Shown: positions 10,607 through 44,290, counted from the stretch's first letter. The stretch: DNA of 64,000 bases from Escherichia phage arall (MN850584.1); one strand, 5' to 3'. Made by a program: numbers and translations. The notes: a model not told the origin generated them from the sequence alone.

Positions 10607-10683
10607 TCTTTTCTCCTCTTTAATGCGGAGGACAATCCTCCGCTCTATGTCTTATACTATAAACTGTTTTTAAAGAAAGTCAA

Positions 10684-35211: not shown

Positions 35212-35307
35212 ATGATCAAGAAAGAAAACAGCTTGACGGTTGGAACGATTAACGCTATCATTCTAGCCGTTCCATTTTGGGTTGTAGTAGCGGTTATTAT
35301 CTTTTAA
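35212..35307 (+). CDS. Small hydrophobic peptide (31 aa)
   Basis: ATG 9 nt after AAGG; single TM-like segment; low confidence. Confidence 0.25.
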   Translation: MIKKENSLTVGTINAIILAVPFWVVVAVIIF

Positions 35308-35315
35308 AAATATTC

Positions 35316-35343
35316 TTGACAACGTTTTTTAATCTGATAAGAT
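35316..35343 (+). promoter_or_regulatory. Sigma70-like promoter (TTGACA-16-TAAGAT)
   Basis: Upstream of hairpin and gene 35396. Confidence 0.45.
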
Positions 35344-35353
35344 GTATCACATA

Positions 35354-35373
35354 GGGCGGCAATAGTGCCGCTC
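35354..35373 (+). promoter_or_regulatory. Conserved 5'-UTR hairpin (family member 1)
   Basis: CATAGG-GCGGCA-ATAG-TGCCGC; 40-nt element identical to copy at 38448-38487. Confidence 0.6.
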
Positions 35374-35395
35374 ATAACAGAAGAGAGAAATAATC

Positions 35396-35668
35396 ATGGC
35401 ATCATATAGCGCATCAATGATCGTAATGGGTATCACTGGTAAACCTATGCGCGGTGGCGGATCTTTCGCTAACATCAATATTGATGGGCGTTTATCCCTG
35501 GATGCAGCGATCACCGTGGCACGGGAAACATTTAAAAAAGAATGTAATTTCAATAAACAAGATTATCTCGGTTTCGCTATTGAAAAAACCGCGCGCTTTG
35601 TTGATTATAAAAGCCCGAAAATGGTTGATACTACACTAAAAGCGCAAGATGTAGCATTTTTGCTTTAA
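35396..35668 (+). CDS. Hypothetical early protein
   Basis: 90 aa ORF, ATG start. Confidence 0.55.
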   Translation: MASYSASMIVMGITGKPMRGGGSFANINIDGRLSLDAAITVARETFKKECNFNKQDYLGFAIEKTARFVDYKSPKMVDTTLKAQDVAFLL

Positions 35669-35671
35669 GGC

Positions 35672-35701
35672 TTGACACTGAAAAATAATTTGGTAATATA
35701 T
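35672..35701 (+). promoter_or_regulatory. Sigma70-like promoter (TTGACA-17/18-AATATA)
   Basis: Upstream of hairpin and gene 35755. Confidence 0.45.
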
Positions 35702-35710
35702 ACTACATAG

Positions 35711-35732
35711 GGCGGGGAAATGGTTTCCCGCC
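35711..35732 (+). promoter_or_regulatory. Conserved 5'-UTR hairpin (family member 2)
   Basis: GGCGGGGAA-ATGG-TTTCCCGCC, 9-bp stem. Confidence 0.6.
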
Positions 35733-35754
35733 AAATCAAAGAAAGGGTAACACA

Positions 35755-36117
35755 ATGAGCAAGCAAATCAATACTATCATGTTAAACCTGGTATCTTTCC
35801 GCGACGACGTGAAAAATCTTCCACGTGATGCAGTGGATGCACGTATCGAAAGCTATCGCTCACAGATCGCAACGCTACCGCTAAAACGTGATCAACATGC
35901 CGCTAATATGATGCTTAATGCTATGCTTAAAAAGATGATTCAATGTGATCTTACCCTGGCTTATGAATATGCTGGCGATCTCTTTGTAACATATAGCAAG
36001 CCCGTACCAGGTATGAGCACAACCGAAGAATTGCATGCCTTAAATCTGCGACAAGATGCATGGGATAACATGCGCCGTGTTATGGTATGGGTAGAAAGCG
36101 GTAAAATTTACGAATAA
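35755..36117 (+). CDS. Hypothetical early protein
   Basis: 120 aa ORF. Confidence 0.55.
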   Translation: MSKQINTIMLNLVSFRDDVKNLPRDAVDARIESYRSQIATLPLKRDQHAANMMLNAMLKKMIQCDLTLAYEYAGDLFVTYSKPVPGMSTTEELHALNLRQDAWDNMRRVMVWVESGKIYE

Positions 36118-36123
36118 AAACGG

Positions 36124-36151
36124 TTGACATTGCACTAAAACCTGATAAGCT
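36124..36151 (+). promoter_or_regulatory. Sigma70-like promoter (TTGACA-16-TAAGCT)
   Basis: Upstream of hairpin 36158. Confidence 0.4.
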
Positions 36152-36157
36152 ATCTTA

Positions 36158-36178
36158 AAGCGGGAATAGTTCCCGCTT
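36158..36178 (+). promoter_or_regulatory. Conserved 5'-UTR hairpin (family member 3)
   Basis: AAGCGGGAA-TAG-TTCCCGCTT, 9-bp stem, 3-nt loop. Confidence 0.6.
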
Positions 36179-36195
36179 ACATAGGATAAAACTTT

Positions 36196-36342
36196 ATGAA
36201 ACAATATGTAATGAGTATTCACACCAAAAACGGCGCTACTGTTACGACTCCGGCACGGTTTGCACTTGTAAACCGTTGCAAGAGACTAAAACGAGAGCTA
36301 AAAAACAACCGTGCAACGGGCTTTAAACGCTGGGGAGGATAA
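36196..36342 (+). CDS. Small basic protein (48 aa)
   Basis: ATG downstream of hairpin; below track cutoff. Confidence 0.4.
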   Translation: MKQYVMSIHTKNGATVTTPARFALVNRCKRLKRELKNNRATGFKRWGG

Positions 36343-36344
36343 TC

Positions 36345-36605
36345 TTGTTTTTTCTAAAAGTTTTTGATAATGTGATCGCTTTTGAACATGCTGCAACGTT
36401 CAACCTGGCGAGATACGCTATCAGGTTTAAAGATAATGTTTATCCCCGTGCTGGTGGCGGTTACACTATCTTTAATCATCGTAACGCTCAATTAACGGAT
36501 ATAACGAATCCAGATCCTGGAGTGTATCGCATAGGTTGGCTACCGTCAAAAGACGCGGCAAGCATGTTTAAGGTATGTAAACTACTAACAGAAGAGGCAA
36601 ATTAG
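36345..36605 (+). CDS. Hypothetical protein (start uncertain, TTG or GTG)
   Basis: 86 aa ORF with no in-frame ATG near 5' end. Confidence 0.4.
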   Translation: MFFLKVFDNVIAFEHAATFNLARYAIRFKDNVYPRAGGGYTIFNHRNAQLTDITNPDPGVYRIGWLPSKDAASMFKVCKLLTEEAN

Positions 36606-36606
36606 C

Positions 36607-37161
36607 ATGGGGCGTGAGTATGTGATCCAGTCCTGGGTAAAGCATGACGCTAATGATCCGCGCATAATACCAGATGACATGATCGATCACATGGTAGGGT
36701 ATAGCGGGGAGCAGATAGGAAATCGAGCGGCAAAGAGCAACGGCAACACAAAGGCGCGATCCGTTCGCCCTGGTTGGCTGGCAAATGGTAACGCTGACAT
36801 TACAAGCGCCGCAGATCCAAGCGATGACGCTAAAAATAATCCCTTATACAGCATTGATCCGGCTTTTAAGGTGTTAGAAGAATATCCCGCTAAATTAGCC
36901 GCACTAGATAAAGCATACGAAGAAAAACGGGTGGCATGGACTGTATACAACACCGCTAAAATGGTGCTAGATGCAAAATTGATTAAAGCCCAGGAGAAGA
37001 TCAATAAACTTGTTACCATAGCGCAAGAGGAAGACCAGGACGACCAGGAGGAAGAGGAAGAAATCATGCCTATCCTGGAAGAGGAAGAGATCCAGCCATA
37101 CATGCCGACGGAAGAGGAAAAAAGACAAGCCTTAAAAAATTACGAAAATTGTATTGTGTAA
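36607..37161 (+). CDS. Hypothetical protein with acidic C-terminal tail
   Basis: 184 aa ORF. Confidence 0.55.
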   Translation: MGREYVIQSWVKHDANDPRIIPDDMIDHMVGYSGEQIGNRAAKSNGNTKARSVRPGWLANGNADITSAADPSDDAKNNPLYSIDPAFKVLEEYPAKLAALDKAYEEKRVAWTVYNTAKMVLDAKLIKAQEKINKLVTIAQEEDQDDQEEEEEIMPILEEEEIQPYMPTEEEKRQALKNYENCIV

Positions 37162-37164
37162 GGC

Positions 37165-37193
37165 TTGACATATGCAAACAAGCCCCGTAATAT
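37165..37193 (+). promoter_or_regulatory. Sigma70-like promoter (TTGACA-17-TAATAT), first of tandem pair
   Basis: Followed by hairpin but no ORF before second promoter. Confidence 0.4.
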
Positions 37194-37207
37194 GTACCAC
37201 ATAAAGC

Positions 37208-37220
37208 GGGGCAACGCCCC
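37208..37220 (+). promoter_or_regulatory. 5'-UTR-type hairpin (family member 4)
   Basis: GGGGC-AAC-GCCCC. Confidence 0.4.
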
Positions 37221-37242
37221 ATAAGGTGAAATAAAAAATCAC

Positions 37243-37270
37243 TTGACACCTGAAATCAGTAAGCTATAAT
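37243..37270 (+). promoter_or_regulatory. Consensus sigma70 promoter (TTGACA-16-TATAAT)
   Basis: Perfect -35 and -10 hexamers. Confidence 0.6.
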
Positions 37271-37307
37271 GCTTATATAAATTAAAGCGTTACTAAGGAA
37301 TAAAATC

Positions 37308-37673
37308 ATGGCTAAAAATATCAATGTTTCTGCTTATGCTACCCTGGCTAACACTGCTAAAATTGAACTATCCAGCATTGAAGCGGTACATATTAGCGCC
37401 CGTCGCTGGTTTCAAAAGTCTTATGGTAATACTTATTTCTCTTTGATGGTTGACGTTGAGATCGGCGGTAAATTGGTCGAAGTGGTTAACGTTCCGTTTC
37501 AATATGGTTATGGTGATCATTTTGATACCGTCGCCCTGGAAGAGTTTAGCAAGGTTATCAACCTGGAAGGTAAAGACTTTTCAAATTATGCTTACCTTTC
37601 CCGTTTTTGCCGTGACAATGGGATCGCTGTATACAGTCATGCAAGCGATGTTAAACGTAAAAAAGATTTATAA
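37308..37673 (+). CDS. Hypothetical early protein
   Basis: 121 aa ORF. Confidence 0.55.
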   Translation: MAKNINVSAYATLANTAKIELSSIEAVHISARRWFQKSYGNTYFSLMVDVEIGGKLVEVVNVPFQYGYGDHFDTVALEEFSKVINLEGKDFSNYAYLSRFCRDNGIAVYSHASDVKRKKDL

Positions 37674-37679
37674 AAAGCA

Positions 37680-37707
37680 TTGACAGCACGAATAAAAAGC
37701 ATATAAT
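37680..37707 (+). promoter_or_regulatory. Consensus sigma70 promoter (TTGACA-16-TATAAT)
   Basis: Perfect hexamers. Confidence 0.6.
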
Positions 37708-37720
37708 ACTTATATCGAGA

Positions 37721-37737
37721 GCGGGAATAGTTCCCGC
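37721..37737 (+). promoter_or_regulatory. Conserved 5'-UTR hairpin (family member 5)
   Basis: GCGGGAA-TAG-TTCCCGC. Confidence 0.6.
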
Positions 37738-37761
37738 CTCACTGAAAAAGAGATTAACATC

Positions 37762-38001
37762 ATGGCTAAATCTAAAATGTACAACGGTCACAAAAATAAA
37801 ACTCATTGGAATGTAAGCCTTTGGATCAACAACGATGAAGGTTTTTATAATCTTGCGCGTGAATTTATCGCAGCTAACACCAATAAGAATGACGCAGCGC
37901 GTGATATGATGTTATTTCTTGAAAGTATGGATCAAGATAAAACGCCAGACGGATTCAAGTTCAGTAAAACCGCGATCCGTGCCGCTATGGTTGGAATGTA
38001 A
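37762..38001 (+). CDS. Hypothetical early protein
   Basis: 79 aa ORF. Confidence 0.5.
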   Translation: MAKSKMYNGHKNKTHWNVSLWINNDEGFYNLAREFIAANTNKNDAARDMMLFLESMDQDKTPDGFKFSKTAIRAAMVGM

Positions 38002-38014
38002 AGGAGACATAAAA

Positions 38015-38095
38015 ATGAAACATCGTTCGACCTATCTCACAAAACGTTTTAGCTTAGATCATAAATTGGGCTACTACGGAAGAAATAGAAAATAA
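38015..38095 (+). CDS. Small basic peptide (26 aa)
   Basis: AAGGAG 8 nt upstream of ATG; very short. Confidence 0.25.
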   Translation: MKHRSTYLTKRFSLDHKLGYYGRNRK

Positions 38096-38096
38096 T

Positions 38097-38124
38097 TTGA
38101 CAACGTTTTAAATTAGTGTAAGAT
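38097..38124 (+). promoter_or_regulatory. Sigma70-like promoter (TTGACA-16-TAAGAT)
   Basis: Upstream of hairpin 38136. Confidence 0.45.
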
Positions 38125-38135
38125 ATATCACATAA

Positions 38136-38156
38136 GGCGGGAAATGGTTTCCCGCC
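38136..38156 (+). promoter_or_regulatory. Conserved 5'-UTR hairpin (family member 6)
   Basis: GGCGGGAA-ATGG-TTTCCCGCC; near-identical to member 2. Confidence 0.6.
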
Positions 38157-38178
38157 AAATCAAAGAAAGGTTATAATT

Positions 38179-38406
38179 ATGGCTATCGTTATTGTTCGCG
38201 TATCCGGTACGGTTGGAAGCTCCCAGGTAGTAGCAGTTATCACAGAGAAGAAAGGGGATGATCTTCACTCTTCCTTGAATAGCTGGGCGGTCGCTAATTT
38301 TGGTCAGTGGTCGAGCGTCGAGTATATCGAATCCTACCAGGTGCCAACGATTAGCCTGACCGATCTCAACGTTGATCGTCTGTTATGCCTGGATGAATTA
38401 ATCTGA
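38179..38406 (+). CDS. Hypothetical early protein
   Basis: 75 aa ORF. Confidence 0.5.
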   Translation: MAIVIVRVSGTVGSSQVVAVITEKKGDDLHSSLNSWAVANFGQWSSVEYIESYQVPTISLTDLNVDRLLCLDELI

Positions 38407-38415
38407 AAAAGATTG

Positions 38416-38443
38416 TTGACACGGGAAAGAAAAAGAGTAAACT
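38416..38443 (+). promoter_or_regulatory. Sigma70-like promoter (TTGACA-16-TAAACT)
   Basis: Upstream of hairpin 38454. Confidence 0.4.
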
Positions 38444-38453
38444 GTATTACATA

Positions 38454-38473
38454 GGGCGGCAATAGTGCCGCTC
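38454..38473 (+). promoter_or_regulatory. Conserved 5'-UTR hairpin (family member 7)
   Basis: Identical to member 1. Confidence 0.6.
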
Positions 38474-38496
38474 ATAACAGAAGAGAGATTATCACG

Positions 38497-38712
38497 ATGG
38501 CTAATATCCGCACACTGTTAAAAAATGCAAAGCAAGTTTTATTTTCAGATGACGAATATTTTAATAAAGATATCACAGGCGTGAAAAATCTTAAAGATGT
38601 GAAAGATGTGATAGGTATTCGCGGATCTTTACGTAAAGGTGACACATACGGTAACAAGGTGCAATATAAGTTAGATCAGTTTTATGATTTTACTTTGACA
38701 ATTATTTCATAA
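38497..38712 (+). CDS. Hypothetical early protein
   Basis: 71 aa ORF. Confidence 0.5.
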   Translation: MANIRTLLKNAKQVLFSDDEYFNKDITGVKNLKDVKDVIGIRGSLRKGDTYGNKVQYKLDQFYDFTLTIIS

Positions 38713-38718
38713 AACCGC

Positions 38719-38746
38719 TTGCAATCTTAATAAAATAAAGTAAACT
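38719..38746 (+). promoter_or_regulatory. Sigma70-like promoter (TTGCAA-16-TAAACT)
   Basis: Upstream of hairpin 38757. Confidence 0.35.
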
Positions 38747-38756
38747 AAATTCATCA

Positions 38757-38780
38757 AGGCGGTGGAATAGCCCACCGCCT
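38757..38780 (+). promoter_or_regulatory. Conserved 5'-UTR hairpin (family member 8)
   Basis: AGGCGGTGG-AATAGC-CCACCGCCT, 9-10 bp stem, different stem sequence. Confidence 0.55.
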
Positions 38781-38803
38781 AACAAAGAGAAGAGGAAAAT
38801 ATC

Positions 38804-38974
38804 ATGATCACTTTCGCCACCCGTGAAGCCGCTCGCAACGTTGCACGTAAAGTTAACGCCGCCAACCTGGGCGCTACGCTTAAAGCCCCGGTGAAAGATG
38901 AATCAGGTAAATGGATCTTCCCTGGTCTGCGTCACGCTGATAAGCTGGGAACGTTAACGCTAAAAAATAAATAA
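38804..38974 (+). CDS. Small hypothetical protein (56 aa)
   Basis: ATG after AGAGGAAAA; below track cutoff. Confidence 0.45.
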   Translation: MITFATREAARNVARKVNAANLGATLKAPVKDESGKWIFPGLRHADKLGTLTLKNK

Positions 38975-38981
38975 GATCCGC

Positions 38982-39010
38982 TTGACAGTAGCATCATTTA
39001 TAAGTAAAGT
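38982..39010 (+). promoter_or_regulatory. Sigma70-like promoter (TTGACA-17-TAAAGT)
   Basis: Upstream of hairpin 39020. Confidence 0.4.
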
Positions 39011-39019
39011 AACAACAAC

Positions 39020-39040
39020 GGCGGGAAATGGTTTCCCGCC
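39020..39040 (+). promoter_or_regulatory. Conserved 5'-UTR hairpin (family member 9)
   Basis: GGCGGGAAA-TGG-TTTCCCGCC. Confidence 0.6.
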
Positions 39041-39060
39041 ATCAATAAAGAGATAAAATC

Positions 39061-39420
39061 ATGAAATCAGTAAAAGCAATTAAAACCTACATTGTGTCGG
39101 CTATTTCTTTTGAAGGTACTACAACAGAAAAAGAAAAGATCACCGAACTGATGCGCCGTTTTAACTCTGAATACTGGTATCCCGATAATCAAAAACGTTA
39201 CAATTATAACGTGATCAAGGCGATAGCCTCATGGTTACAAGGTTTACCGTCAGACATTAACATCGCCTTTGATTATAACGAGATTGATCATTTATTAATT
39301 GAATGGAAGTACATAAAAGAAACAAGCAAAGAAACAACCGTTACCCGTGAGCGGGAAAATTATTGGTTATATATTGCAAGCATGATCGTAATCCTGGCAA
39401 AACAGCATAACGTGGCGTAA
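39061..39420 (+). CDS. Hypothetical early protein
   Basis: 119 aa ORF. Confidence 0.55.
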   Translation: MKSVKAIKTYIVSAISFEGTTTEKEKITELMRRFNSEYWYPDNQKRYNYNVIKAIASWLQGLPSDINIAFDYNEIDHLLIEWKYIKETSKETTVTRERENYWLYIASMIVILAKQHNVA

Positions 39421-39435
39421 TTAAGAGGAAGAAAC

Positions 39436-39573
39436 ATGAACGCATCACAGCAGATCGAAAAATTCAACCGCAGCAAGGCGCGTAAAGATTGGAACGAAGA
39501 GATCACCAAAAAAGGCGACAAGCGGAACAAAACAAAGAGAGATCGCAGCACAAAAAGATACTGGAACGAATAA
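39436..39573 (+). CDS. Small highly basic protein (45 aa)
   Basis: AAGAGGA SD; Lys/Arg-rich; followed by terminator. Confidence 0.4.
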   Translation: MNASQQIEKFNRSKARKDWNEEITKKGDKRNKTKRDRSTKRYWNE

Positions 39574-39574
39574 C

Positions 39575-39602
39575 AAAAAAGGGCGCAATAAGCGCCCTTT
39601 TA
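39575..39602 (+). terminator. Rho-independent terminator
   Basis: AAAAAAGGGCGC-AATAA-GCGCCCTTTT. Confidence 0.65.
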
Positions 39603-39612
39603 GCTTATATAG

Positions 39613-39654
39613 AGGCTTGTTACCCATAGGCAATGGTAACGCCAGGATAAGCCT
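39613..39654 (+). promoter_or_regulatory. Nested inverted repeats upstream of gene 39693
   Basis: AGGCTT-GTTACC-cataggcaat-GGTAAC-gccaggata-AGCCT. Confidence 0.3.
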
Positions 39655-39692
39655 ATAAATCAACGTTAAACGGCTTTACAGGAGCTTTAAAA

Positions 39693-39875
39693 ATGAAATT
39701 AGACGAAATAAGCAAGGCACTAGCCCAGGGGCAAAGGTTATGCGCCCGATATCGTGATCAATATGGCTTCATAACTAGCGGCGTGATCCTGGGGATTGAA
39801 GGCAATAAGATTTTTATTGACACGTTGAAAAACGTTGTATATAGTGACAATATAATCTCAATAAAACATATATGA
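39693..39875 (+). CDS. Hypothetical protein
   Basis: 60 aa ORF, GGAG SD. Confidence 0.45.
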   Translation: MKLDEISKALAQGQRLCARYRDQYGFITSGVILGIEGNKIFIDTLKNVVYSDNIISIKHI

Positions 39876-39883
39876 GGCAAGAA

Positions 39884-40285
39884 ATGAAAAAATTATTGAT
39901 CGCTGGTTTAATCTCTTTTGGCATGGTTGGAACATCTAGCGCGGCGATATCCTCCACAGTAGCAGAATTAAGCGCCGTTGATGCAATGGAAAACGTCATG
40001 CTTATTAATAATGCGATCCCCGATGAAATCATGGAGGATTCACACATGATCGCTTATGGTGCTGTTACACAACTAACGGCAAAAATAGATAAATCTATTG
40101 TTAACGGCTTAAATGAAGATGTGCCATGTGAAATTATTACCAGTGTGCTGACTACTCAAAATTTTACGCCGTGGTTAAAAAGTATTCAAAAAGTACACAG
40201 TACAGCCGCAGATCGTAGCAATGAAAAACTAGTGTCAGCACTTGCAACGTATACCCTAGCAAAATGCACCGAGATAAAAGATTGA
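39884..40285 (+). CDS. Putative secreted/periplasmic protein
   Basis: Signal peptide MKKLLIAGLISFGMVGTSSA; ATG at 39884 (alternative 39872 overlaps upstream stop). Confidence 0.55.
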   Translation: MKKLLIAGLISFGMVGTSSAAISSTVAELSAVDAMENVMLINNAIPDEIMEDSHMIAYGAVTQLTAKIDKSIVNGLNEDVPCEIITSVLTTQNFTPWLKSIQKVHSTAADRSNEKLVSALATYTLAKCTEIKD

Positions 40286-40310
40286 CAACATAGAAAGCAC
40301 GTTATAAGAT
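40282..40310 (+). promoter_or_regulatory. Sigma70-like promoter (TTGACA-17-TAAGAT)
   Basis: No hairpin in this 5' UTR. Confidence 0.45.
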
Positions 40311-40332
40311 ACACACAACAAAGGAGAACTAC

Positions 40333-40635
40333 ATGAACGGCATAGCTAAAACGTTTTTTCTTTTTTCTGGTGTAAATGATCCATCAATAAAAGTCGATAG
40401 TGTAAAAGAAAACAATACTATCACCGCTAAATTGTTTCAAGATGAAACAAATAACGTGCTAATCATTAATCTTAAAGAAATAACGAAAGGTTATTATACT
40501 ATTGCTTACCATGCGATCTATCATGCGGGTACTAGTGAGGAAGTGCAAACAAGCAACAACGAAAGCGCGGCGCTACCTGGTGATCTGGTGCTGGGCGTTA
40601 TCAGTTTAATTGTCAATGATTTTTTTAAGGAGTAA
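40333..40635 (+). CDS. Hypothetical protein
   Basis: 100 aa ORF, AAGGAG SD. Confidence 0.5.
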   Translation: MNGIAKTFFLFSGVNDPSIKVDSVKENNTITAKLFQDETNNVLIINLKEITKGYYTIAYHAIYHAGTSEEVQTSNNESAALPGDLVLGVISLIVNDFFKE

Positions 40636-40639
40636 AACC

Positions 40640-40735
40640 ATGCCCTATTTACATTTATTTTTCGGTATCTTATTGACAGGATCTTTTTTCTTCTGTATGC
40701 TTGTTTCTATTGTAAACCACGTTTTAAGACATTAA
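40640..40735 (+). CDS. Small hydrophobic peptide (31 aa)
   Basis: AAGGAG 7 nt upstream. Confidence 0.3.
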   Translation: MPYLHLFFGILLTGSFFFCMLVSIVNHVLRH

Positions 40736-40744
40736 GGAAACAGC

Positions 40745-40864
40745 ATGAAAATTATTCCCGTACAGTATAGCGTAATAAATCCAGCATATGAGGAAGGAAG
40801 GAAAACAAGCATGGCTTTATGTTGTATTGCTACTATAGCCATGTTGTTATATATTGTGTTTTAA
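40745..40864 (+). CDS. Small hydrophobic peptide (39 aa)
   Basis: AAGGAA upstream; C-terminal TM segment. Confidence 0.3.
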   Translation: MKIIPVQYSVINPAYEEGRKTSMALCCIATIAMLLYIVF

Positions 40865-40964
40865 TAGGTTTTATAGTTGTACGCTTTAAAGGCTTGACAA
40901 TTTTTTGTTATGCTTTAAAATATATCTTGAAAACGGCAAAGGCCGCAAACAAAAGGGTAAAATT

Positions 40965-41288
40965 ATGAAATCTGTGATCGGTGTTTATTTGGATAACTCT
41001 GATTTTTTCTATCATCGCGCTCGTTTCCTTGATGCGATTGAAATGATAGAATCAGGCTTTAAAGAGTATCGCCTTGCACATGATGACCTAGAAGCATTAC
41101 AGGGCAATAGTGTTTTTACATTGCAAGCGAAAGCACTATGCAAAAGCCGGATCGACATTGCGAGCAAAAAGATAGAACGCGGCATGTCCTGGTTACGCAC
41201 CGCAGAAATCAACATGGGGCAATGGTACGGCGAAAACTTAGAAAATAAACGCACTTTTGTAAATGTAGAAAATCTTAAAGATTATTGA
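40965..41288 (+). CDS. Hypothetical protein
   Basis: ATG at 40965 (track start 40905 is inside the promoter). Confidence 0.5.
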   Translation: MKSVIGVYLDNSDFFYHRARFLDAIEMIESGFKEYRLAHDDLEALQGNSVFTLQAKALCKSRIDIASKKIERGMSWLRTAEINMGQWYGENLENKRTFVNVENLKDY

Positions 41289-41317
41289 TTGACAGCACAC
41301 CTAACAGATAGTATATT
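41289..41317 (+). promoter_or_regulatory. Sigma70-like promoter (TTGACA-17-TATATT)
   Basis: Upstream of hairpin 41330. Confidence 0.5.
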
Positions 41318-41329
41318 GTATCTCATAGA

Positions 41330-41350
41330 GCGGGGAAATGGTTTCCCCGC
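41330..41350 (+). promoter_or_regulatory. Conserved 5'-UTR hairpin (family member 10)
   Basis: GCGGGGAAA-TGG-TTTCCCCGC. Confidence 0.6.
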
Positions 41351-41370
41351 CTTAACAGAAGAGATAAGCT

Positions 41371-41655
41371 ATGAAGATCACAAAAGCACTTTCCAACTAT
41401 GCAGCACGTCGCGGATTATGTTTAACCGTTGAAAATTTAGGGAAAGAAGATTTTTTGTGCTTTTGGGAGCTTGAGAATGATAATGAGTGGATCTTCTCTT
41501 ATTCTATCTGCGAAGATCAAAACGGTTGTTTATTAACCTGGCGCGGTAATATCTATCTACCGGAAGAAATCAAAGAAGAATTACCAGGCACGATCATGAC
41601 TGAGAAACAGCTTAAGGAAGTGATCAATTTTGTAGGGCAAAACATTAAAAAATAA
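41371..41655 (+). CDS. Hypothetical early protein
   Basis: 94 aa ORF. Confidence 0.5.
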   Translation: MKITKALSNYAARRGLCLTVENLGKEDFLCFWELENDNEWIFSYSICEDQNGCLLTWRGNIYLPEEIKEELPGTIMTEKQLKEVINFVGQNIKK

Positions 41656-41656
41656 T

Positions 41657-41685
41657 TTGACACTAGGCAAACAACGTAGTAAAGT
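41657..41685 (+). promoter_or_regulatory. Sigma70-like promoter (TTGACA-17-TAAAGT)
   Basis: Upstream of hairpin 41696. Confidence 0.45.
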
Positions 41686-41695
41686 TTATCACATA

Positions 41696-41718
41696 GGGCG
41701 GGAAATGGTTTCCCGCTC
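41696..41718 (+). promoter_or_regulatory. Conserved 5'-UTR hairpin (family member 11)
   Basis: GCGGGAAA-TGG-TTTCCCGC. Confidence 0.6.
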
Positions 41719-41739
41719 ACAACAGAAGAGAAACAAATC

Positions 41740-41910
41740 ATGATCCCAACTATGTTTTATGTATCGCGCAAAGGTCACAATATTTTTTGGTCTGAAGATT
41801 TAAATGAAGCCATGACGTTTGCCCGTGATCGTGTTGCTATCGGTGGCGTTAACATTACTGTAACCGATGAAAACGGCATTGAATACTATAACGGCGACGA
41901 TGAAGAGTAA
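41740..41910 (+). CDS. Small hypothetical protein (56 aa)
   Basis: ATG after hairpin; below track cutoff. Confidence 0.45.
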   Translation: MIPTMFYVSRKGHNIFWSEDLNEAMTFARDRVAIGGVNITVTDENGIEYYNGDDEE

Positions 41911-41917
41911 TTAATGA

Positions 41918-41939
41918 GGCGGGGGGAGTATTCCCCGCC
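41918..41939 (+). promoter_or_regulatory. Hairpin (family member 12) between co-transcribed genes
   Basis: GGCGGGGGG-AGTA-TTCCCCGCC directly after stop codon, no promoter of its own. Confidence 0.5.
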
Positions 41940-41958
41940 GTCAATAAAGAGGTAAATC

Positions 41959-42228
41959 ATGAAAATATCATTGGACGTTGCAATCAAGGCCATCGAATCC
42001 GGTTACACCCTGGTAAAAGATGATAAGGCTAAAATAGTGCATCATGTTAACAAGGAAACAGGCGAAAGCATGATCACATATAAAGCCGCCTACTTTCTCC
42101 AATCAGTAGCAGATCCGCGCGTACAACGCCAGGTTACAGCGGCTATTGCTAAAAAATTATGTGCTTTACAGGGCACAAGTTTTAACGAGATCGCCCCGTG
42201 TTTTGACTGGTCGAGCTTGAAAAAATAG
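41959..42228 (+). CDS. Hypothetical early protein
   Basis: 89 aa ORF. Confidence 0.5.
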   Translation: MKISLDVAIKAIESGYTLVKDDKAKIVHHVNKETGESMITYKAAYFLQSVADPRVQRQVTAAIAKKLCALQGTSFNEIAPCFDWSSLKK

Positions 42229-42229
42229 T

Positions 42230-42257
42230 TTGATAATATGCTGTTATCTGGTAAAGT
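42230..42257 (+). promoter_or_regulatory. Sigma70-like promoter (TTGATA-16-TAAAGT)
   Basis: Upstream of hairpin 42268. Confidence 0.35.
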
Positions 42258-42267
42258 GTACGACATA

Positions 42268-42291
42268 GGGCGAGGCAATAAGGCAACGCCC
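42268..42291 (+). promoter_or_regulatory. 5'-UTR hairpin variant (family member 13, large loop)
   Basis: GGGCG-(14 nt)-CGCCC. Confidence 0.35.
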
Positions 42292-42310
42292 ATTAATGAG
42301 GGGTAGAATC

Positions 42311-42415
42311 ATGTTAGAGAAAATTTTCACGGTTGTAATAGTGGGCCTGGCGTTATCGGTTGGATTGGTTGCAACTATGGCTAACATGATCCTATCTTCC
42401 CACGGTATCGGCTAA
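42311..42415 (+). CDS. Small membrane peptide (34 aa)
   Basis: Single hydrophobic helix. Confidence 0.3.
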   Translation: MLEKIFTVVIVGLALSVGLVATMANMILSSHGIG

Positions 42416-42429
42416 AAGAGAAACACAAC

Positions 42430-42594
42430 ATGAAAACAGAAATCATTATTGAAATCATCAACGGTTATAAAGAAGCCTTTATTTTTGCCGAACCAGCGAC
42501 GGATAACAATGGGGAATATATTGAGAATCTAGACGATTATGATTTTTCTCCTAGCGCCCTGAAATATACACTACTAACACCGCCAACCGTTTAA
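42430..42594 (+). CDS. Small acidic protein (54 aa)
   Basis: ATG after AAGAG; below track cutoff. Confidence 0.35.
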   Translation: MKTEIIIEIINGYKEAFIFAEPATDNNGEYIENLDDYDFSPSALKYTLLTPPTV

Positions 42595-42671
42595 CTGATG
42601 CAGCTAAATTAATGCCATCGGTGCATGCTTACATTGGTGAAGATAATTTGATTTATATTGAATAAAAAGTA

Positions 42672-42699
42672 TTGACACCGATCCCCAATATGTTATTAT
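42672..42699 (+). promoter_or_regulatory. Sigma70-like promoter (TTGACA-16-TATTAT)
   Basis: Upstream of hairpin 42710. Confidence 0.5.
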
Positions 42700-42709
42700 T
42701 TACCACGTA

Positions 42710-42730
42710 AGCGGGAAATGGTTTCCCGCT
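42710..42730 (+). promoter_or_regulatory. Conserved 5'-UTR hairpin (family member 14)
   Basis: AGCGGGAAA-TGG-TTTCCCGCT. Confidence 0.6.
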
Positions 42731-42753
42731 AGGTAATCAAAAAGGTAAATACT

Positions 42754-43143
42754 ATGCGCAACCTGGTTTCTGTTTCTAACGTTGAAAAATTCCAATCTTT
42801 ACATGGTATCGTTAACAACGTGGCGCCTTTTTTAGTAAACGGCTTGATTGCAAAGATGAAAAATAAACATCATGCGGCATGGTCTGCTTACTGCTTTGAT
42901 AATGATGAAAAAGCGGCTGAAATGATGTTAAATATGCTGTTAGACAGTGTAGAATCATCTTTACCGGAAAACATCGCAGAAGAGATCACCTATCGTTATA
43001 ATATGGCGATCACTTACCAGGAGGTTGCGCAATTCAATATGATGGACGATGACGAACAACAGGATCAGGAAATGTTTTGGGAGTATGCAGATCGTAAATC
43101 GGCTTTTGATGAAAAGTTAGCGATGTATTATAACGAATATTAA
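42754..43143 (+). CDS. Hypothetical early protein
   Basis: 129 aa ORF. Confidence 0.55.
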   Translation: MRNLVSVSNVEKFQSLHGIVNNVAPFLVNGLIAKMKNKHHAAWSAYCFDNDEKAAEMMLNMLLDSVESSLPENIAEEITYRYNMAITYQEVAQFNMMDDDEQQDQEMFWEYADRKSAFDEKLAMYYNEY

Positions 43144-43156
43144 TACACGGTAAAAG

Positions 43157-43184
43157 AAAGGGGCGCACTAAGCGCCCTTTTTTG
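43157..43184 (+). terminator. Rho-independent terminator
   Basis: AAAGGGGCGC-ACTA-AGCGCCCTTTTTT. Confidence 0.65.
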
Positions 43185-43528: not shown

Positions 43529-43557
43529 TTGACACCGGATCACGCTTACACTATTAT
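43529..43557 (+). promoter_or_regulatory. Sigma70-like promoter (TTGACA-17-TATTAT)
   Basis: No hairpin here. Confidence 0.5.
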
Positions 43558-43603
43558 TTATCACGTAGGGCAAATCATTTTAAACGGTAAACGAGGAATC
43601 ACC

Positions 43604-43987
43604 ATGAGCAATATCATCAACCTGGCAGCGACTGTAAACGGTAAAGATTTTAACGGCGCTGTAGATCGTGATCCTATGTGGTGCTTATCAGTGTTTAAAG
43701 GCGATCTGGTTGAAGTTAGAACAACCGAAGGTTATAGCGACGATTATAAATGCGAGATCCATTTACATAACTGGTACACGGGTAAAACTTATGCGCTGAA
43801 TCATGCGTTTATCGGGAAAATTGAATATCGCGAGATGATCGACGAAGAAACCGGGCAAGATTTTAGCGAAAACGTTTATATTCGTTCAGAAACATTAGCC
43901 GAACGTTTGATCGAGAAAATGAAAGCAAAAAATAAAATTAATTTAACTCATTGGATTGATATAACAAACGATCCAGCTTATCAGTAA
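43604..43987 (+). CDS. Hypothetical protein
   Basis: ATG at 43604 (track start 43529 is the TTG of the -35 hexamer). Confidence 0.55.
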   Translation: MSNIINLAATVNGKDFNGAVDRDPMWCLSVFKGDLVEVRTTEGYSDDYKCEIHLHNWYTGKTYALNHAFIGKIEYREMIDEETGQDFSENVYIRSETLAERLIEKMKAKNKINLTHWIDITNDPAYQ

Positions 43988-44001: not shown

Positions 44002-44029
44002 AAGGGCGCACAAAGCGCCCTTTCTTTTT
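44002..44029 (+). terminator. Rho-independent terminator
   Basis: AAGGGCGC-ACAAA-GCGCCCTTTCTTTTT. Confidence 0.65.
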
Positions 44030-44250: not shown

Positions 44251-44290
44251 ATTTATAGCTGATTATTTATGCAATAAACTGCATAATTCA

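What the first reader, a model, noticed from the sequence alone, without database searches (positions are those of the whole stretch)
35300..42760. Family of structure-conserved 5'-UTR hairpins on about 14 early transcripts
Between each sigma70-like promoter and the Shine-Dalgarno/ATG sits a GC hairpin (7-10 bp stem, 3-5 nt loop) flanked by CATAGG upstream and A(A/C)AGAAGAG downstream. Stem sequences differ between copies (GGCGGGAAA/TTTCCCGCC, GCGGCA/TGCCGC, GGCGGTGG/CCACCGCC, GGGGC/GCCCC) while pairing is kept, which is compensatory variation that argues for an RNA-structure function. Position at the predicted transcript 5' end suggests mRNA stabilisation, a processing site, or an operator for an RNA-binding regulator. 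A less likely alternative is a DNA-hairpin promoter element of the kind used by virion RNA polymerases.
Basis: seen in the sequence. Interest (0 to 1): 0.75.

Follow-up and report, generated by a model that had tools for sequence, protein, structure and literature searches.

The report
Hairpin-tagged early promoter cassettes in phage
A phi92-like E. coli phage drives about 14 small early genes from copies of one repeated promoter cassette whose transcript should begin with a GC hairpin kept by selection, most likely a shield for the mRNA 5' end; this is real and undescribed for these phages, but it is a variant of known designs.

Summary
Between 35.3 and 42.8 kb there are 13 sigma70 promoter + GC hairpin units, one promoterless hairpin and one weak copy. 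One more family member lies at 10.6 kb on the minus strand.

Each unit is a copy of a roughly 85-bp cassette: A-rich tract, TTGACA, N16-17, TAnnnT, 6 nt, C(A/G)TAG box, hairpin, about 20 nt of unstructured purine-rich RBS, ATG. Hairpins after promoters far exceed chance (8/15 by strict criteria against 0.26 in shuffles). About half of strong promoters in Stephanstirmvirinae early regions carry one, fewer in Vequintavirus FV3, and about 1% in 76 unrelated phage loci.

Pairing is under selection:
- 94% of cells are paired.
- Orthologues show a compensatory A-T/G-C swap.
- An A-U/G.U/G-C series has G.U as the commonest state.
- Loops vary freely while inner stem pairs do not.

None has a T-run, and GCGG..CCGC spacing varies from 8 to 13 nt, which argues against terminators and against rigid DNA operators. 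The predicted start (A/G of the C(A/G)TAG box) leaves 3-4 unpaired nt.

Best reading: 5'-terminal protective stem-loops inside modular, recombination-prone early cassettes. These resemble the PeSLs of T4-like phages but have a different geometry. Function is inferred, not shown.

The parts
35316..35398 (+). Cassette: -35 at 35316-35321, -10 TAAGAT at 35338-35343, CATAGG box, hairpin 35354-35373 (GGGCGGCA AUAG UGCCGCUC with a G.U pair), AACAGAAGAGAG, ATG at 35396.
   Evidence: dG -14.4, z -3.96; CM E 7e-6.
35672..35757 (+). Cassette: TTGACA-16-TAATAT, CATAGG, hairpin 35711-35732 (GGCGGGGAAA/UUUCCCGCC, one bulged G), ATG at 35755.
   Evidence: dG -15.5, z -3.0; CM E 3e-11.
36124..36198 (+). Cassette with a weaker -10 (TAAGCT at 36146-36151). 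Hairpin 36158-36178 starts 6 nt after the -10. CATAGG lies after the hairpin. ATG at 36196.
   Evidence: z -4.3; CM E 9e-9. The loop is flipped (TAG to CTA) in the ESCO8 orthologue.
37165..37221 (+). Orphan unit: TTGACA-17-TAATAT, CATAAA, 5-bp hairpin 37208-37220 (GGGGC AAC GCCCC). No ORF follows. A second promoter at 37243-37270 drives ATG 37308.
   Evidence: weak: dG -8, z -0.96; CM E 0.67. The same arrangement is present in phage Paula.
37680..37764 (+). Cassette: consensus TTGACA-16-TATAAT, hairpin 37721-37737 (GCGGGAA UAG UUCCCGC, extendable to 37717-37741), ATG at 37762.
   Evidence: z -3.5; CM E 1e-12. The loop varies (TAG/TAC/CAC) among orthologues while the stem is intact.
38097..38181 (+). 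Cassette: TTGACA-16-TAAGAT, CATAAG, hairpin 38136-38156 (GGCGGGAAA UGG UUUCCCGCC), ATG at 38179.
   Evidence: z -3.6; best CM hit, E 3e-16. Phapecoctavirus orthologues carry a different hairpin, GGGGCG ACAAG CGCCCC.
38416..38499 (+). Cassette: TTGACA-16-TAAACT, CATAGG, hairpin 38454-38473 (same type as the copy at 35354), ATG at 38497.
   Evidence: z -3.35. Orthologues show G.U, G-C and shortened variants. The orthologous copy of this hairpin in phAPEC8 is annotated 'promoter (PHIRE)'.
38719..38806 (+). Cassette with a weaker promoter (TTGCAA-16-TAAACT). Hairpin 38757-38780 (AGGCGGUGG AAUAGC CCACCGCCU), ATG at 38804.
   Evidence: dG -18.7, z -5.2; CM E 0.07 because of its different geometry.
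38982..39063 (+). Cassette: TTGACA-17-TAAAGT, no CATAGG box, hairpin 39020-39040, ATG at 39061.
   Evidence: z -3.65; CM E 5e-13. The phi92 orthologue has an A-to-G change that gives a G.U pair.
40894..40967 (+). Weak or degenerate copy: TTGACA-16-TAAAAT, then only a 4-bp CGGC AAAG GCCG hairpin at 40934-40945, ATG at 40965.
   Evidence: dG -6. Not detected by the CM.
41289..41373 (+). Cassette: TTGACA-17-TATATT, CATAGA, hairpin 41330-41350 (GCGGGGAAA UGG UUUCCCCGC), ATG at 41371.
   Evidence: z -3.0; CM E 4e-14.
41657..41742 (+). Cassette: TTGACA-17-TAAAGT, CATAGG, hairpin 41696-41718 (with a G.U pair at its base), ATG at 41740.
   Evidence: z -4.1; CM E 1e-14. The ESCO8 orthologue carries the other hairpin type, GGGCGGCA...
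41918..41961 (+). Promoterless intercistronic hairpin 41918-41939 (GGCGGGG..CCCCGCC). It starts 8 nt after the stop codon of the upstream gene. AAUAAAGAGG, ATG at 41959.
   Evidence: dG -18.7, z -3.3; CM E 0.055. Conserved in ESCO8 and Paula with a loop indel.
42230..42313 (+). Cassette: TTGATA-16-TAAAGT, CATAGG, irregular hairpin 42268-42291 (GGGCG/CGCCC with an internal loop), ATG at 42311.
   Evidence: z -3.3; CM E 0.09. The upstream AAAAAATAGTTTGA repeat is an indel junction against Paula and ESCO8.
42672..42756 (+). Cassette: TTGACA-16-TATTAT, CGTAAG, hairpin 42710-42730 (AGCGGGAAA UGG UUUCCCGCU), ATG at 42754.
   Evidence: z -3.5; CM E 5e-13. The outer pair is A-U here and G-C in ESCO8 and Paula, with identical flanks: a compensatory double change.
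10604..10683 (-). It lies upstream of the 325-aa TerC-family ORF.
   Evidence: E 5e-12; this copy was in the training set; z -4.7.
43529..43607 (+). Promoter with the CGTAGGGC start box but no hairpin. It is a hybrid left by a deletion whose junction (17-nt overlap at 43555-43571) lies in the start box and 5' arm, relative to two successive cassettes in Paula.
39577..39601 (.). True bidirectional intrinsic terminator (AAAAGGGCGC..GCGCCCTTTT). It closes the first multi-promoter block. Listed here for contrast with the 5' hairpins.
43155..43183 (+). True intrinsic terminator with a T-run. It closes the second multi-promoter block.

Best explanation
The window comes from a phi92-like (Justusliebigvirus) E. 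coli myophage. The interval is a hyperplastic array of small ORFan genes.

Most of these genes are expressed from a copy of one repeated cassette, in this order:
- an A-rich upstream tract;
- TTGACA, N16-17, TAnnnT;
- a 6-nt discriminator;
- a C(A/G)TAG start box;
- a GC hairpin of 6-10 bp;
- about 20 nt of unstructured purine-rich leader with a modest Shine-Dalgarno;
- the ATG.

Host sigma70 RNA polymerase should start at the A/G of the start box. Each primary transcript then begins with 3-4 unpaired nt followed directly by the hairpin.

I propose that the hairpin acts in the mRNA as a sequence-independent 5'-terminal stem-loop. It would hinder 5'-end-dependent decay (pyrophosphate removal by RppH and 5'-end sensing by RNase E). 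It would also give every cassette the same context-independent 5' end, while leaving the ribosome-binding site free. In read-through transcripts from upstream promoters, the same hairpin would cap the 5' end created by cleavage in the AU-rich promoter sequence.

Secondarily, because the cassettes are near-identical repeats, short-homology recombination between them gains, loses and swaps genes and hairpin types.

Shown: the anatomy, the excess over chance, lineage specificity, selection on pairing, the lack of terminator features, and junctions at cassettes. Inferred: the start site, the early timing and the stabilising function.
For: Identity and context:
- The interval is about 96% identical to Justusliebigvirus genomes over 99% of its length, and all genes under it are small hypothetical proteins.
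- In phi92 the block lies next to the right terminal repeat.

Register:
- In 49 unique cassettes from the window and 8 related phage loci, the stem starts 10-11 nt after the -10 in 26, and 8-12 nt after it in 40.
- The stem ends 16-25 nt before the ATG in 42 of the 49.
- With the usual E. coli start rule (purine 7-8 nt after the -10, preceded by a pyrimidine), the 5' overhang is 3-4 nt in 35 of 54 cassettes and 1-5 nt in 48 of 54. The start context is CATAG or CGTAG in 31 of 54.

Folding:
- The hairpin is the dominant predicted structure in the leaders, and it never pairs with the SD or the AUG; 3 of the 15 also show a weak second stem near the RBS.

Selection on pairing:
- 92.9% of cells are paired against 75.8% in shuffles and 36-62% when the partner is slid.
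- The figure is 94.3% over 56 distinct copies.
- There is a compensatory A-U to G-C change at an orthologous site with identical flanks.
- Among near-neighbour variants there are 22 loop changes. In the stems there are 3 WC/G.U switches, 3 double WC/WC changes, and 4 pair-breaking changes (three at the outermost, seventh counted pair and one at the sixth).

Sense-strand signal:
- An A-U/G.U/G-C series exists in which G.U is the commonest state (29 copies).
- A-to-G changes opposite U occur in phi92, nieznany and SF1-1.
- Sense RNA folds are more stable than antisense in 36 of 44 unique elements (Wilcoxon p = 2e-4), and G.U pairs number 16 on the sense strand against 8 on the antisense.

Not a terminator: no copy has a T-run after the stem, while the genuine terminators of the same region do.

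Not a generic promoter property:
- 24 of 48 strong promoters carry a hairpin in 3 Stephanstirmvirinae contigs.
- Only 3 of roughly 250 do in 76 unrelated phage loci that encode a homologue of the same gene.

Precedent: a 5' hairpin stabilises E. coli mRNA and impedes RppH (review PMC3997798).

Recombination: three window-versus-Paula indel junctions lie in cassette boxes, namely ATGGCTA at the start codons, AAAAAATAGTTTGA at the UP/-35 region, and CGTAGGGC at the start box.
Against: - No transcript 5' end, half-life or expression timing is known for this phage or any close relative. I found no paper that addresses it.
- A 3-4 nt overhang sits at the upper limit of what is recalled to protect in E. 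coli (about 2-4 nt), and RppH accepts 2-3 unpaired nt. Protection could therefore be partial.
- One copy has no promoter (41918), and one unit drives no ORF (37165-37221).
- The sense-strand G.U excess rests largely on one recurrent motif (GGGCGG..CCGCUC), so the number of independent events is small (about 5 against 1).
- The hairpin apex often reads AAU(A/G)G across different stem types, which could instead mark a protein-binding site.
- Several strong promoters in the same block work without any hairpin (37243, 39817, 40282).
Confidence: 0.45

Rival explanations
1. PeSL-type cassette in the strict sense. Here the stem-loop acts as an attenuator or insulator that damps transcription arriving from upstream cassettes. 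It also serves, or is targeted, as the recombination site for modular gene shuffling. It would have no role at the 5' end of its own mRNA.
For: - The setting matches that of PeSLs: near-consensus sigma70 promoters with GC stem-loops, repeated in a hyperplastic ORFan region (PMC2839356 and PMC4122927).
- Indel junctions lie at cassette boxes.
- Orthologous genes carry swapped hairpin types.
- One junction lies in the 5' arm of a hairpin.
- There are no terminators between 10 successive promoters, so some damping of read-through would make sense.
Against: - No copy has a U-tract; the tails are A-rich with 0-3 T in 8 nt. The phage's real terminators are of the AAAGCCCC..GGGGCTTT(T) form.
- The hairpin sits downstream of its own start site in a fixed register. 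As a terminator it would therefore attenuate its own gene.
- In PeSLs the stem-loop lies upstream of or across the promoter.
- Two of the three junctions are outside the hairpin.
Confidence: 0.15
2. Operator for an RNA-binding regulator. A phage early or middle protein, or a host factor, recognises the hairpin with its flanks on all early mRNAs. This would coordinately shut off, destabilise, process or translationally tune them, in the manner of T4 RegA or RegB.
For: - The motif is shared by about 14 co-regulated transcripts at a fixed position.
- The apex reads AAU(A/G)G in several stem types, and there is a conserved AUAG 5' flank and a purine-rich (ARN-like) 3' flank.
- The promoterless intercistronic copy would still be a valid target.
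Against: - Loops change freely between orthologues (TAG, TAC, CAC, TTG, TGT, AAC) and can flip.
- Stem length (5-10 bp) and sequence vary.
- The Vequintavirus copies share neither apex nor flanks.
- There is no Rfam match.
- No candidate RNA-binding protein was identified. The neighbouring ORFs have no Pfam domains.
Confidence: 0.15
3. No adaptive function. Under this reading the palindromes hitch-hike as part of a selfish or simply duplicated cassette. They persist because gene conversion between cassettes homogenises them.
For: - Few hairpin types are shared by many cassettes, and type swapping and a loop flip are typical of palindrome dynamics.
- Some promoters function without hairpins.
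- Degenerate copies exist (40934, 37208, 42268).
Against: - Inner stem pairs essentially never vary singly, while loops and flanks do.
- Compensatory and wobble changes keep pairing.
- The architecture, with unrelated stem sequences, is kept across two subfamilies.
- The register relative to the -10 and the ATG is narrow.
Confidence: 0.1
4. Nascent-RNA element that modifies RNA polymerase (nut/boxB-boxA-like or put-like processive antitermination), so that transcripts started at these promoters read through the terminators at 39577 and 43155.
For: - The position immediately downstream of early promoters is the same as for lambda nut, HK022 put and the rrn leader.
- A subset of copies has CGCTCATA, against lambda boxA CGCTCTTA (recalled sequence), next to AACA.
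- Terminators do bound the blocks.
Against: - The boxA-like string occurs in only one hairpin type and lies inside the 3' arm, where it is paired.
- The loops are not GNRA-like pentaloops.
- A single 6-10 bp hairpin of variable sequence is unlike the two-stem put RNA.
- 14 or more copies is far more than an antitermination system needs.
- No N-like gene was recognised.
Confidence: 0.05
5. DNA-level element. This could be a phage-specific promoter (as annotated with PHIRE in phAPEC8), an N4-type hairpin promoter for a phage RNA polymerase, or a palindromic operator for a dimeric DNA-binding repressor sitting at +4 to +25.
For: - GenBank record NC_020079 labels these 20-mers 'putative promoter determined with PHIRE'.
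- 3-nt loops and 7-9 bp stems superficially resemble N4 promoter hairpins (recalled).
- A palindrome centred near +14 is a classic roadblock position (lacO1, recalled).
Against: - 13 of 14 copies sit in fixed register behind a near-consensus sigma70 promoter, which makes a second promoter superfluous.
- The spacing between the conserved GCGG and CCGC half-sites varies from 8 to 13 nt, and the stems differ in sequence. That is incompatible with one rigid dimer.
- The commonest state at one pair is G.T, which is a mismatch in duplex-symmetric terms.
- The window has no large polymerase-like ORF. Its only ORF over 450 aa is a UvrD-like helicase. The rV5 genome paper argues for host RNA polymerase throughout.
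Confidence: 0.05

Closest known systems
PeSL (promoter-early stem-loop) cassettes of T4-like phages RB49/phi1, PST and nt-1 (Arbiol et al. 2010, PMC2839356; Comeau et al. 2014, PMC4122927)
   Same: - Both are repeated intergenic cassettes that combine a near-consensus sigma70 early promoter, an AT-rich upstream tract, a GC-rich stem-loop (often G-run/C-run), an SD and an ATG.
- Both are concentrated in hyperplastic regions full of ORFans.
- In both, indels between close relatives have junctions inside the cassettes.
   Different: - The phage lineage is different (Stephanstirmvirinae and Vequintavirinae, not T4-like).
- The stem-loop here is always downstream of the -10 and of the predicted start, in a narrow register, so it is transcribed at the 5' end of its own mRNA. 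PeSL stem-loops lie upstream of, or overlap, the promoter.
- PeSL stem-loops were shown to terminate transcription. These have no U-tract.
- Mini-circles were not tested here.
5'-terminal stabilising stem-loops of E. coli mRNAs (ompA and papA 5' UTRs; hairpins appended to bla; Emory, Bouvet and Belasco 1992, as reviewed in PMC3997798)
   Same: - Both are simple hairpins at or very near the 5' end, with no required sequence, followed by an accessible RBS.
- The mechanism proposed here (hindering RppH and 5'-end-dependent RNase E) is the one established for those cases.
   Different: - Those are single genes with measured half-lives. Here the element is a family of about 14 copies per genome built into a mobile promoter cassette, and there are no decay data.
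- The predicted overhang of 3-4 nt is at the limit of the protective range (recalled figures).
Intrinsic (Rho-independent) terminators
   Same: Both have a GC-rich stem of 6-10 bp and a short loop. Automated annotation of phage Paula calls several of these elements terminators on the opposite strand.
   Different: There is no T-run on either strand. The elements lie between a promoter and its gene. The genuine terminators of the same phage have A-run and T-run flanks and UUCG/GAAA-type loops.
Lambda nut (boxA-boxB) and HK022 put antitermination RNAs
   Same: All are cis-acting hairpins in the first tens of nucleotides of phage early transcripts.
   Different: There are no GNRA-like pentaloops. 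The boxA-like string occurs in only a subset of copies and is paired. The copy number is far too high. There is one hairpin rather than two.

Membership tests
PeSL cassettes (T4-like phages) | Repeated intergenic cassette with a near-consensus sigma70 early promoter, an AT-rich upstream tract, an SD and an ATG. | tested here: met
   The consensus of 43 unique 16-nt-spacer cassettes is A.AAAAa-N3-TTGACA-N16-TAaaaT-gTAtca-CATAGGG. Promoter scan.
PeSL cassettes (T4-like phages) | Stem-loop placed upstream of or overlapping the promoter, just before the start site at the latest, and acting as a terminator or attenuator of upstream transcription. | tested here: not met
   The stem starts 8-12 nt after the -10 in 40 of 49 unique copies, which is downstream of the predicted +1. 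There is no T-run after any copy. Terminator activity itself is not testable here.
PeSL cassettes (T4-like phages) | Enriched in hyperplastic regions next to ORFans, with indel junctions between close relatives inside the cassettes. | tested here: met
   All flanking genes are small hypothetical proteins without Pfam domains. Three junctions against Paula and ESCO8 lie in the ATG, UP/-35 and start boxes. The sample is small.
PeSL cassettes (T4-like phages) | Formation of excised mini-circles by recombination between cassettes. | not testable with these tools
   This needs inverse PCR on infected cells or virion DNA.
5'-terminal stabilising stem-loop (ompA/papA type) | Stem-loop within a few (recalled: no more than 2-4) unpaired nucleotides of the transcript 5' end. 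| tested here: inconclusive
   The predicted overhang is 3-4 nt in 35 of 54 unique cassettes and 1-5 nt in 48 of 54, if the start is the purine 7-8 nt after the -10. No start site has been mapped.
5'-terminal stabilising stem-loop (ompA/papA type) | Acts through structure, not sequence; pairing is what matters. | tested here: met
   Several unrelated stem sequences exist with 93-94% of cells paired. There are compensatory and wobble changes, and loops vary freely.
5'-terminal stabilising stem-loop (ompA/papA type) | Lengthens mRNA half-life by blocking RppH and 5'-end-dependent RNase E. | not testable with these tools
   This needs rifampicin-chase half-lives of wild-type, disrupted and compensatory stems in wild-type, rppH and rne backgrounds.
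Intrinsic terminator | GC hairpin followed immediately by a U-rich tract. | tested here: not met
   None of the family copies passes the T-run test on the sense strand. The tails are A-rich. The one antisense call, at 39044-39016, is a G.T-extended reading.
N4-type hairpin promoters / phage-specific (PHIRE) promoters | Recognised by a phage-encoded RNA polymerase and independent of a sigma70 promoter. | tested here: inconclusive
   A sigma70 promoter precedes 13 of 14 copies in fixed register. The window has no polymerase-sized ORF, but only 64 kb of a roughly 148-kb genome was examined.
Lambda nut boxB/boxA | BoxB with a GNRA-like pentaloop, plus an accessible boxA (CGCUCUUA). | tested here: not met
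   The loops are UGG, UAG, AUAG, AUGG and AAUAGC. The boxA-like CGCUCAUA occurs in only one hairpin type and lies within the paired 3' arm.
Any curated RNA family (Rfam 15) | Covariance-model match. | tested here: not met
   The only hit in 33-46 kb is a sub-threshold STnc320 match at the 39577 terminator (E 0.43, 25 bits against a gathering score of 50).

The most novel reading that the evidence does not exclude
The hairpin, with its AUAG 5' flank and AAURG apex, is a 'self' tag on early phage mRNAs. It would be read by a dedicated factor. One form: it exempts early phage transcripts from a phage-induced, RNase E-dependent purge of host mRNA, as caused by T4 Srd (a homologue is reported in rV5). 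The converse form: it marks the whole early class for coordinated destruction or translational shut-off at the early-to-middle switch. Either way it would be a structure-based post-transcriptional regulon built into a mobile promoter cassette.
Probability: 0.15. Interest if true: 0.75.

Novelty: new variant of a known kind. Interest (0 to 1): 0.5.

Why it matters
If the hairpins are 5'-end shields, these phages have solved early-gene expression with a compact plug-and-play unit. The unit combines a strong host promoter, a stabilising 5' hairpin and an unstructured RBS, and it can be placed in front of any newly acquired ORFan. The same unit also serves as the homology that shuffles those genes.

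That would extend the PeSL idea beyond T4-like phages and give it a second, RNA-level function.

It would also correct database annotation. In GenBank the same elements are called 'phage promoters' in phAPEC8 and 'terminators' in Paula.

Finally, it would provide natural, sequence-diverse 5' stabiliser parts for E. coli expression design.

The family has about 14 copies per genome across some 130-240 sequenced phages. That makes it an unusually good natural data set for testing how 5'-terminal structure controls mRNA decay during infection.

Tried and rejected
- **Rfam.** A scan of 33-46 kb at E <= 1 gave nothing relevant.
- **Literature.** I searched for these elements in rV5-, phi92-, phAPEC8- and PVP-SE1-like phages. 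No description was found. The PVP-SE1 genome paper is not held. One search was swamped by generic terms.
- **Degenerate pattern scan of IMG/VR** (promoter + start box).
- **Terminator reading.** Rejected because there are no T-runs.
- **RNase III site.** Rejected on stem length: 6-10 bp against the roughly 20 bp needed (established knowledge).
- **Rigid DNA operator.** Rejected because half-site spacing varies from 8 to 13 nt.
- **boxA/nut idea.** Rejected because the motif is in a subset only and is paired.
- **CsrA-type GGA loops.** Absent.
- **T4 Srd homologue in the window.** None found (tblastn E 3.1). Its presence elsewhere in the genome was not checked.
- **Strand-asymmetry test by outward extension**. 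It gave only 11 G.U against 5 A.C, mostly one motif, so it is weak on its own.
- **SD strength.** Hairpin cassettes have slightly weaker SDs than hairpin-less promoters (-4.6 against -5.5 kcal/mol, p = 0.015). The control set is contaminated by false promoter/ATG pairs, so I draw no conclusion.
- **First near-neighbour variant network with 11-nt arms**. It was too sparse and was repeated with inner stems only.

Full report
**What the region is.**
The interval matches Justusliebigvirus (phi92-like, Stephanstirmvirinae) E. coli myophages at about 96% identity over 99% of its length. The best match is vB_EcoM_ESCO8. Everything annotated under it in relatives is a small hypothetical protein, and eight ORFs I tested have no significant Pfam domain. 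In phi92 the block lies just inside the right terminal repeat. All genes read on the plus strand. Nearly every one has its own sigma70-like promoter directly after the previous stop codon. The only T-run terminators are at 39577-39601, 43155-43183 and 44002-44022. The interval is therefore two multi-promoter blocks of ORFans, which is a hyperplastic early-type region. The early timing is an inference from promoter type and gene content.

**Checking the observation.**
Reading and folding the 5' leaders gives the following in 35300-42760:
- 13 promoter + hairpin units, one of them an orphan with no ORF at 37165-37221;
- one hairpin without a promoter, at 41918-41939;
- one degenerate 4-bp copy, at 40934-40945.

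Promoters at 37243, 39817 and 40282 have no hairpin.

Energies are -13 to -19 kcal/mol, with z-scores of -3.0 to -5.2 against dinucleotide shuffles for 14 of the 15 leaders folded. These are 13 of the units above, the promoterless hairpin and the copy at 10.6 kb. In 12 of the 15 the rest of the leader, including the SD and AUG, is predicted unpaired; in the 36196, 42311 and 42754 leaders a second weak stem forms next to the RBS.

Under deliberately strict criteria, 8 of 15 promoters are followed within 40 nt by a perfect GC-rich stem. Shuffles give 0.26 +/- 0.52, and the background rate is 1.7%, so binomial p is about 3e-11.

A covariance model built from 25 copies finds 11 plus-strand hits with E < 1e-5, all in the interval. 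It also finds a member on the minus strand at 10614-10650, in front of a TerC-family gene.

Details are in the observation check.

**Anatomy: a repeated cassette, not a free-standing hairpin.**
I anchored 43 unique copies with a 16-nt spacer on the -10. The consensus is A.AAAAa-N3-TTGACA-N16-TAaaaT-gTAtca-CATAGGG, followed by the stem.

Across 49 unique hairpins from the window and eight related loci (ESCO8, Paula, phAPEC8, ECO340P2, nieznany, phi92, a Klebsiella phage, and the Vequintavirus FV3):
- the stem starts 10-11 nt after the -10 in 26 and 8-12 nt after it in 40;
- it ends 16-25 nt before the ATG in 42.

The E. coli start-site rule is a purine 7-8 nt after the -10 preceded by a pyrimidine, with the classical 'CAT' start. 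This is established knowledge. By that rule transcription should begin at the A/G of C(A/G)TAG. That leaves 3-4 unpaired nt in 35 of 54 cassettes and 1-5 nt in 48 of 54. The hairpin is thus predicted to be the first structure of each primary transcript. Its 3' end sits at about the upstream edge of a 30S footprint.

**Is it lineage-specific?**
Yes. A single 86-nt cassette finds 513 places in 132 phage records, almost all Stephanstirmvirinae. FV3 keeps the same architecture with unrelated stems, for example GGGGCAA ACGUC UUGCCCC and GGGGAG ACA CUCCCC.

As a control I fetched 79 IMG/VR loci that encode a homologue of the 121-aa ORF at 37308:
- in three Stephanstirmvirinae contigs, 24 of 48 strong promoters carry the hairpin;
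- in 76 unrelated phage loci, 3 of roughly 250 do.

**Selection on pairing, and on which strand.**
- On the anchored alignment, 92.9% of cells pair. Shuffles give 75.8% and slid partners give 36-62%. Seven of nine pairs change on both sides.
- On 56 distinct model hits, 94.3% of cells pair.

Part of this covariation is a symmetric gain or loss of an A-T pair, and part is the coexistence of a few hairpin types. I therefore looked at orthologues, grouped by the downstream gene:
- The outer pair of 42710-42730 is A-U in the window and G-C in ESCO8 and Paula, with identical flanks. This is a true compensatory change.
- AGCGGCA..UGCCGCU, GGCGGCA..UGCCGCU and GGCGGCA..UGCCGCC form an A-U/G.U/G-C series. 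The G.U state is the commonest, with 29 copies.
- A-to-G changes opposite U occur in phi92, nieznany and SF1-1.
- Loops drift (UAG, UAC, CAC, UUG, UGU, AAC) and once flip (UAG to CUA).

Among near-neighbour variants there are 22 loop changes. In the stems there are 3 WC/G.U switches, 3 double WC/WC changes and 4 pair-breaking changes. Three of the four are at the outermost, seventh counted pair and one is at the sixth.

Sense RNA folds are more stable than antisense folds in 36 of 44 unique elements (p = 2e-4), and G.U pairs number 16 against 8.

These results favour a structure formed by the sense strand, that is the mRNA. The number of independent wobble events is small, because most G.U pairs belong to one recurrent motif.

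**What it is not.**
- *Terminators.* No copy has a T-run, and the tails are A-rich. The phage's real terminators look different, with an AAAGCCCC..GGGGCTTT(T) form and UUCG/GAAA loops. The minus-strand 'terminator' features in the Paula record and the 'promoter (PHIRE)' features in the phAPEC8 record are these same hairpins. I regard both labels as artefacts of automated motif finding.
- *A rigid DNA operator.* The conserved GCGG and CCGC half-sites are 8 to 13 nt apart, and the stems differ.
- *RNase III sites.* The stems are too short.
- *nut-like elements.* The loops are not GNRA-like. The boxA-like CGCUCAUA occurs in one hairpin type only and is paired.
- *N4-type promoters.* These are unlikely because a sigma70 promoter precedes 13 of 14 copies in fixed register. 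The window holds no polymerase-sized ORF. Only 64 kb of the genome was examined, so this last point is incomplete.

**Most likely mechanism.**
A 5'-terminal hairpin is the textbook way to slow 5'-end-dependent decay in E. coli. A 5' hairpin stabilises bla mRNA and impedes RppH (review PMC3997798; original work by Emory, Bouvet and Belasco 1992). The following fit that design:
- a fixed start-to-stem distance;
- sequence-independent pairing;
- narrow stability;
- a free RBS.

In read-through transcripts the AU-rich promoter sequences are plausible RNase E sites. The hairpin would then cap the new 5'-monophosphate end. That could also explain the promoterless intercistronic copy.

A link to phage-induced RNase E activation is attractive. 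T4 Srd stimulates RNase E on host mRNA (PMC4980113), and the rV5 paper reports an Srd homologue. This link is unverified here, and no Srd homologue lies in the window.

I put this explanation at 0.45. The start site, the timing and the effect on decay are inferred.

**Second role, shared with PeSLs.**
Three indels between the window and Paula or ESCO8 have their junctions in cassette boxes:
- a gene-plus-cassette unit lost between two ATGGCTA start codons, at 37308-37314;
- a unit bounded by the direct repeat AAAAAATAGTTTGA (UP/-35), at 42220-42236;
- a deletion joining two cassettes within CGTAGGGC, at 43555-43571, which leaves a promoter with a start box but no hairpin.

Orthologous genes also carry different hairpin types. 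For example, window 38136 has GGCGGGAAAUGGUUUCCCGCC where Phapecoctavirus has GGGGCGACAAGCGCCCC.

This is the modular shuffling described for PeSL cassettes of T4-like phages (PMC2839356 and PMC4122927). The key geometric feature differs, however. PeSL stem-loops lie upstream of or across the promoter and terminate transcription. These lie inside the transcript and lack terminator tails. I therefore do not file them as PeSLs, but as a new variant of that kind in another phage lineage.

**Verdict.**
The feature is real, strongly non-random, under selection for pairing, lineage-specific and, as far as the searchable literature shows, undescribed. Its parts and its probable mechanism are both known kinds. 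Interest 0.5. Novelty: new variant of a known kind.

Noticed in passing
window 20338-23151 (-): This is the only ORF over 450 aa in the window. It is a 937-aa UvrD-like helicase whose motor domain is interrupted by an intein/Hint domain (Pfam Intein_splicing and Hint, residues about 267-613).
   Followed up: partly
window 9629-10683 (-): A TerC-family integral membrane protein gene (Pfam E 1e-38) is driven by a cassette of the same family (CATAGA + GCGGAGGA UUG UCCUCCGC). The cassette is therefore not restricted to ORFans or to the early block.
   Followed up: partly
window 44023-45800; hairpin 44677-44697: This is a gene-poor stretch of about 1.7 kb with no ORF over 70 aa and no tRNA. It matches the 'non-coding' box drawn for rV5. 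Inside it a different hairpin shows clean covariation between relatives: GCCTATG/CATAGGC, CGCTATG/CATAGCG and CGCTACG/CGTAGCG. It could be an ncRNA or an origin element.
   Followed up: no
window 59165-59233 (-): A perfect TTGACA-18-TATAAT promoter is followed after 15 nt by a terminator-shaped hairpin, AAAGCCCCAATCAGGGGCTTT plus ATTT. Then come GGAGG and the ATG of a 176-aa ORF. A promoter followed by an apparent terminator could be an attenuator.
   Followed up: no
window 3352-3370 (-): GAGGGGGATAGTCCCCCTC matches the hairpin model (E 1e-5), but it lies upstream of a TTGCAA-17-TACAAT promoter. This is the PeSL-like order, terminator or stem-loop first and promoter second.
   Followed up: no
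window 36158-36178 vs L001 (ESCO8): The loop of the orthologous hairpin is reverse-complemented (TAG in the window and Paula, CTA in ESCO8) while the stem and flanks are identical. This is the signature of palindrome-mediated inversion or template switching.
   Followed up: partly
window 42430-42594: This 54-aa ORF is a truncated version of a 387-bp gene in ESCO8 and Paula. The window lacks about 150 bp inside it (blast breakpoints 42548/42555).
   Followed up: no
window 35365-35385, 38465-38485, 41710-41730: One hairpin type carries CGCTCATA or CGCTCACA followed by AACAG. This resembles lambda boxA (CGCTCTTA) and rrn boxA (..GCTCTTTAACAA). It overlaps the paired 3' arm and is absent from the other types.
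   Followed up: partly
L003 (phAPEC8 NC_020079) and L002 (Paula LR865361): Public records annotate the same hairpins as 'putative promoter determined with PHIRE' in phAPEC8 and as minus-strand 'terminator' in Paula. Both labels look wrong.
   Followed up: yes
L162 (IMGVR_UViG_3300015262_000003, 103 kb) 5944-6000 and 7980-8030: An otherwise unrelated phage contig has two sigma70 promoter + 11 nt + hairpin + RBS units (GAGGCGAACAAGCCTC and GGAAGCAAACCAGCTTCC). The architecture may have arisen in other lineages as well.
   Followed up: no
window 35213-35307: A 31-aa hydrophobic mini-ORF (MIKKENSLTVGTINAIILAVPFWVVVAVIIF) contains a promoter-like site at 35233-35261. Its Phapecoctavirus counterpart follows a hairpin cassette.
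   Followed up: no
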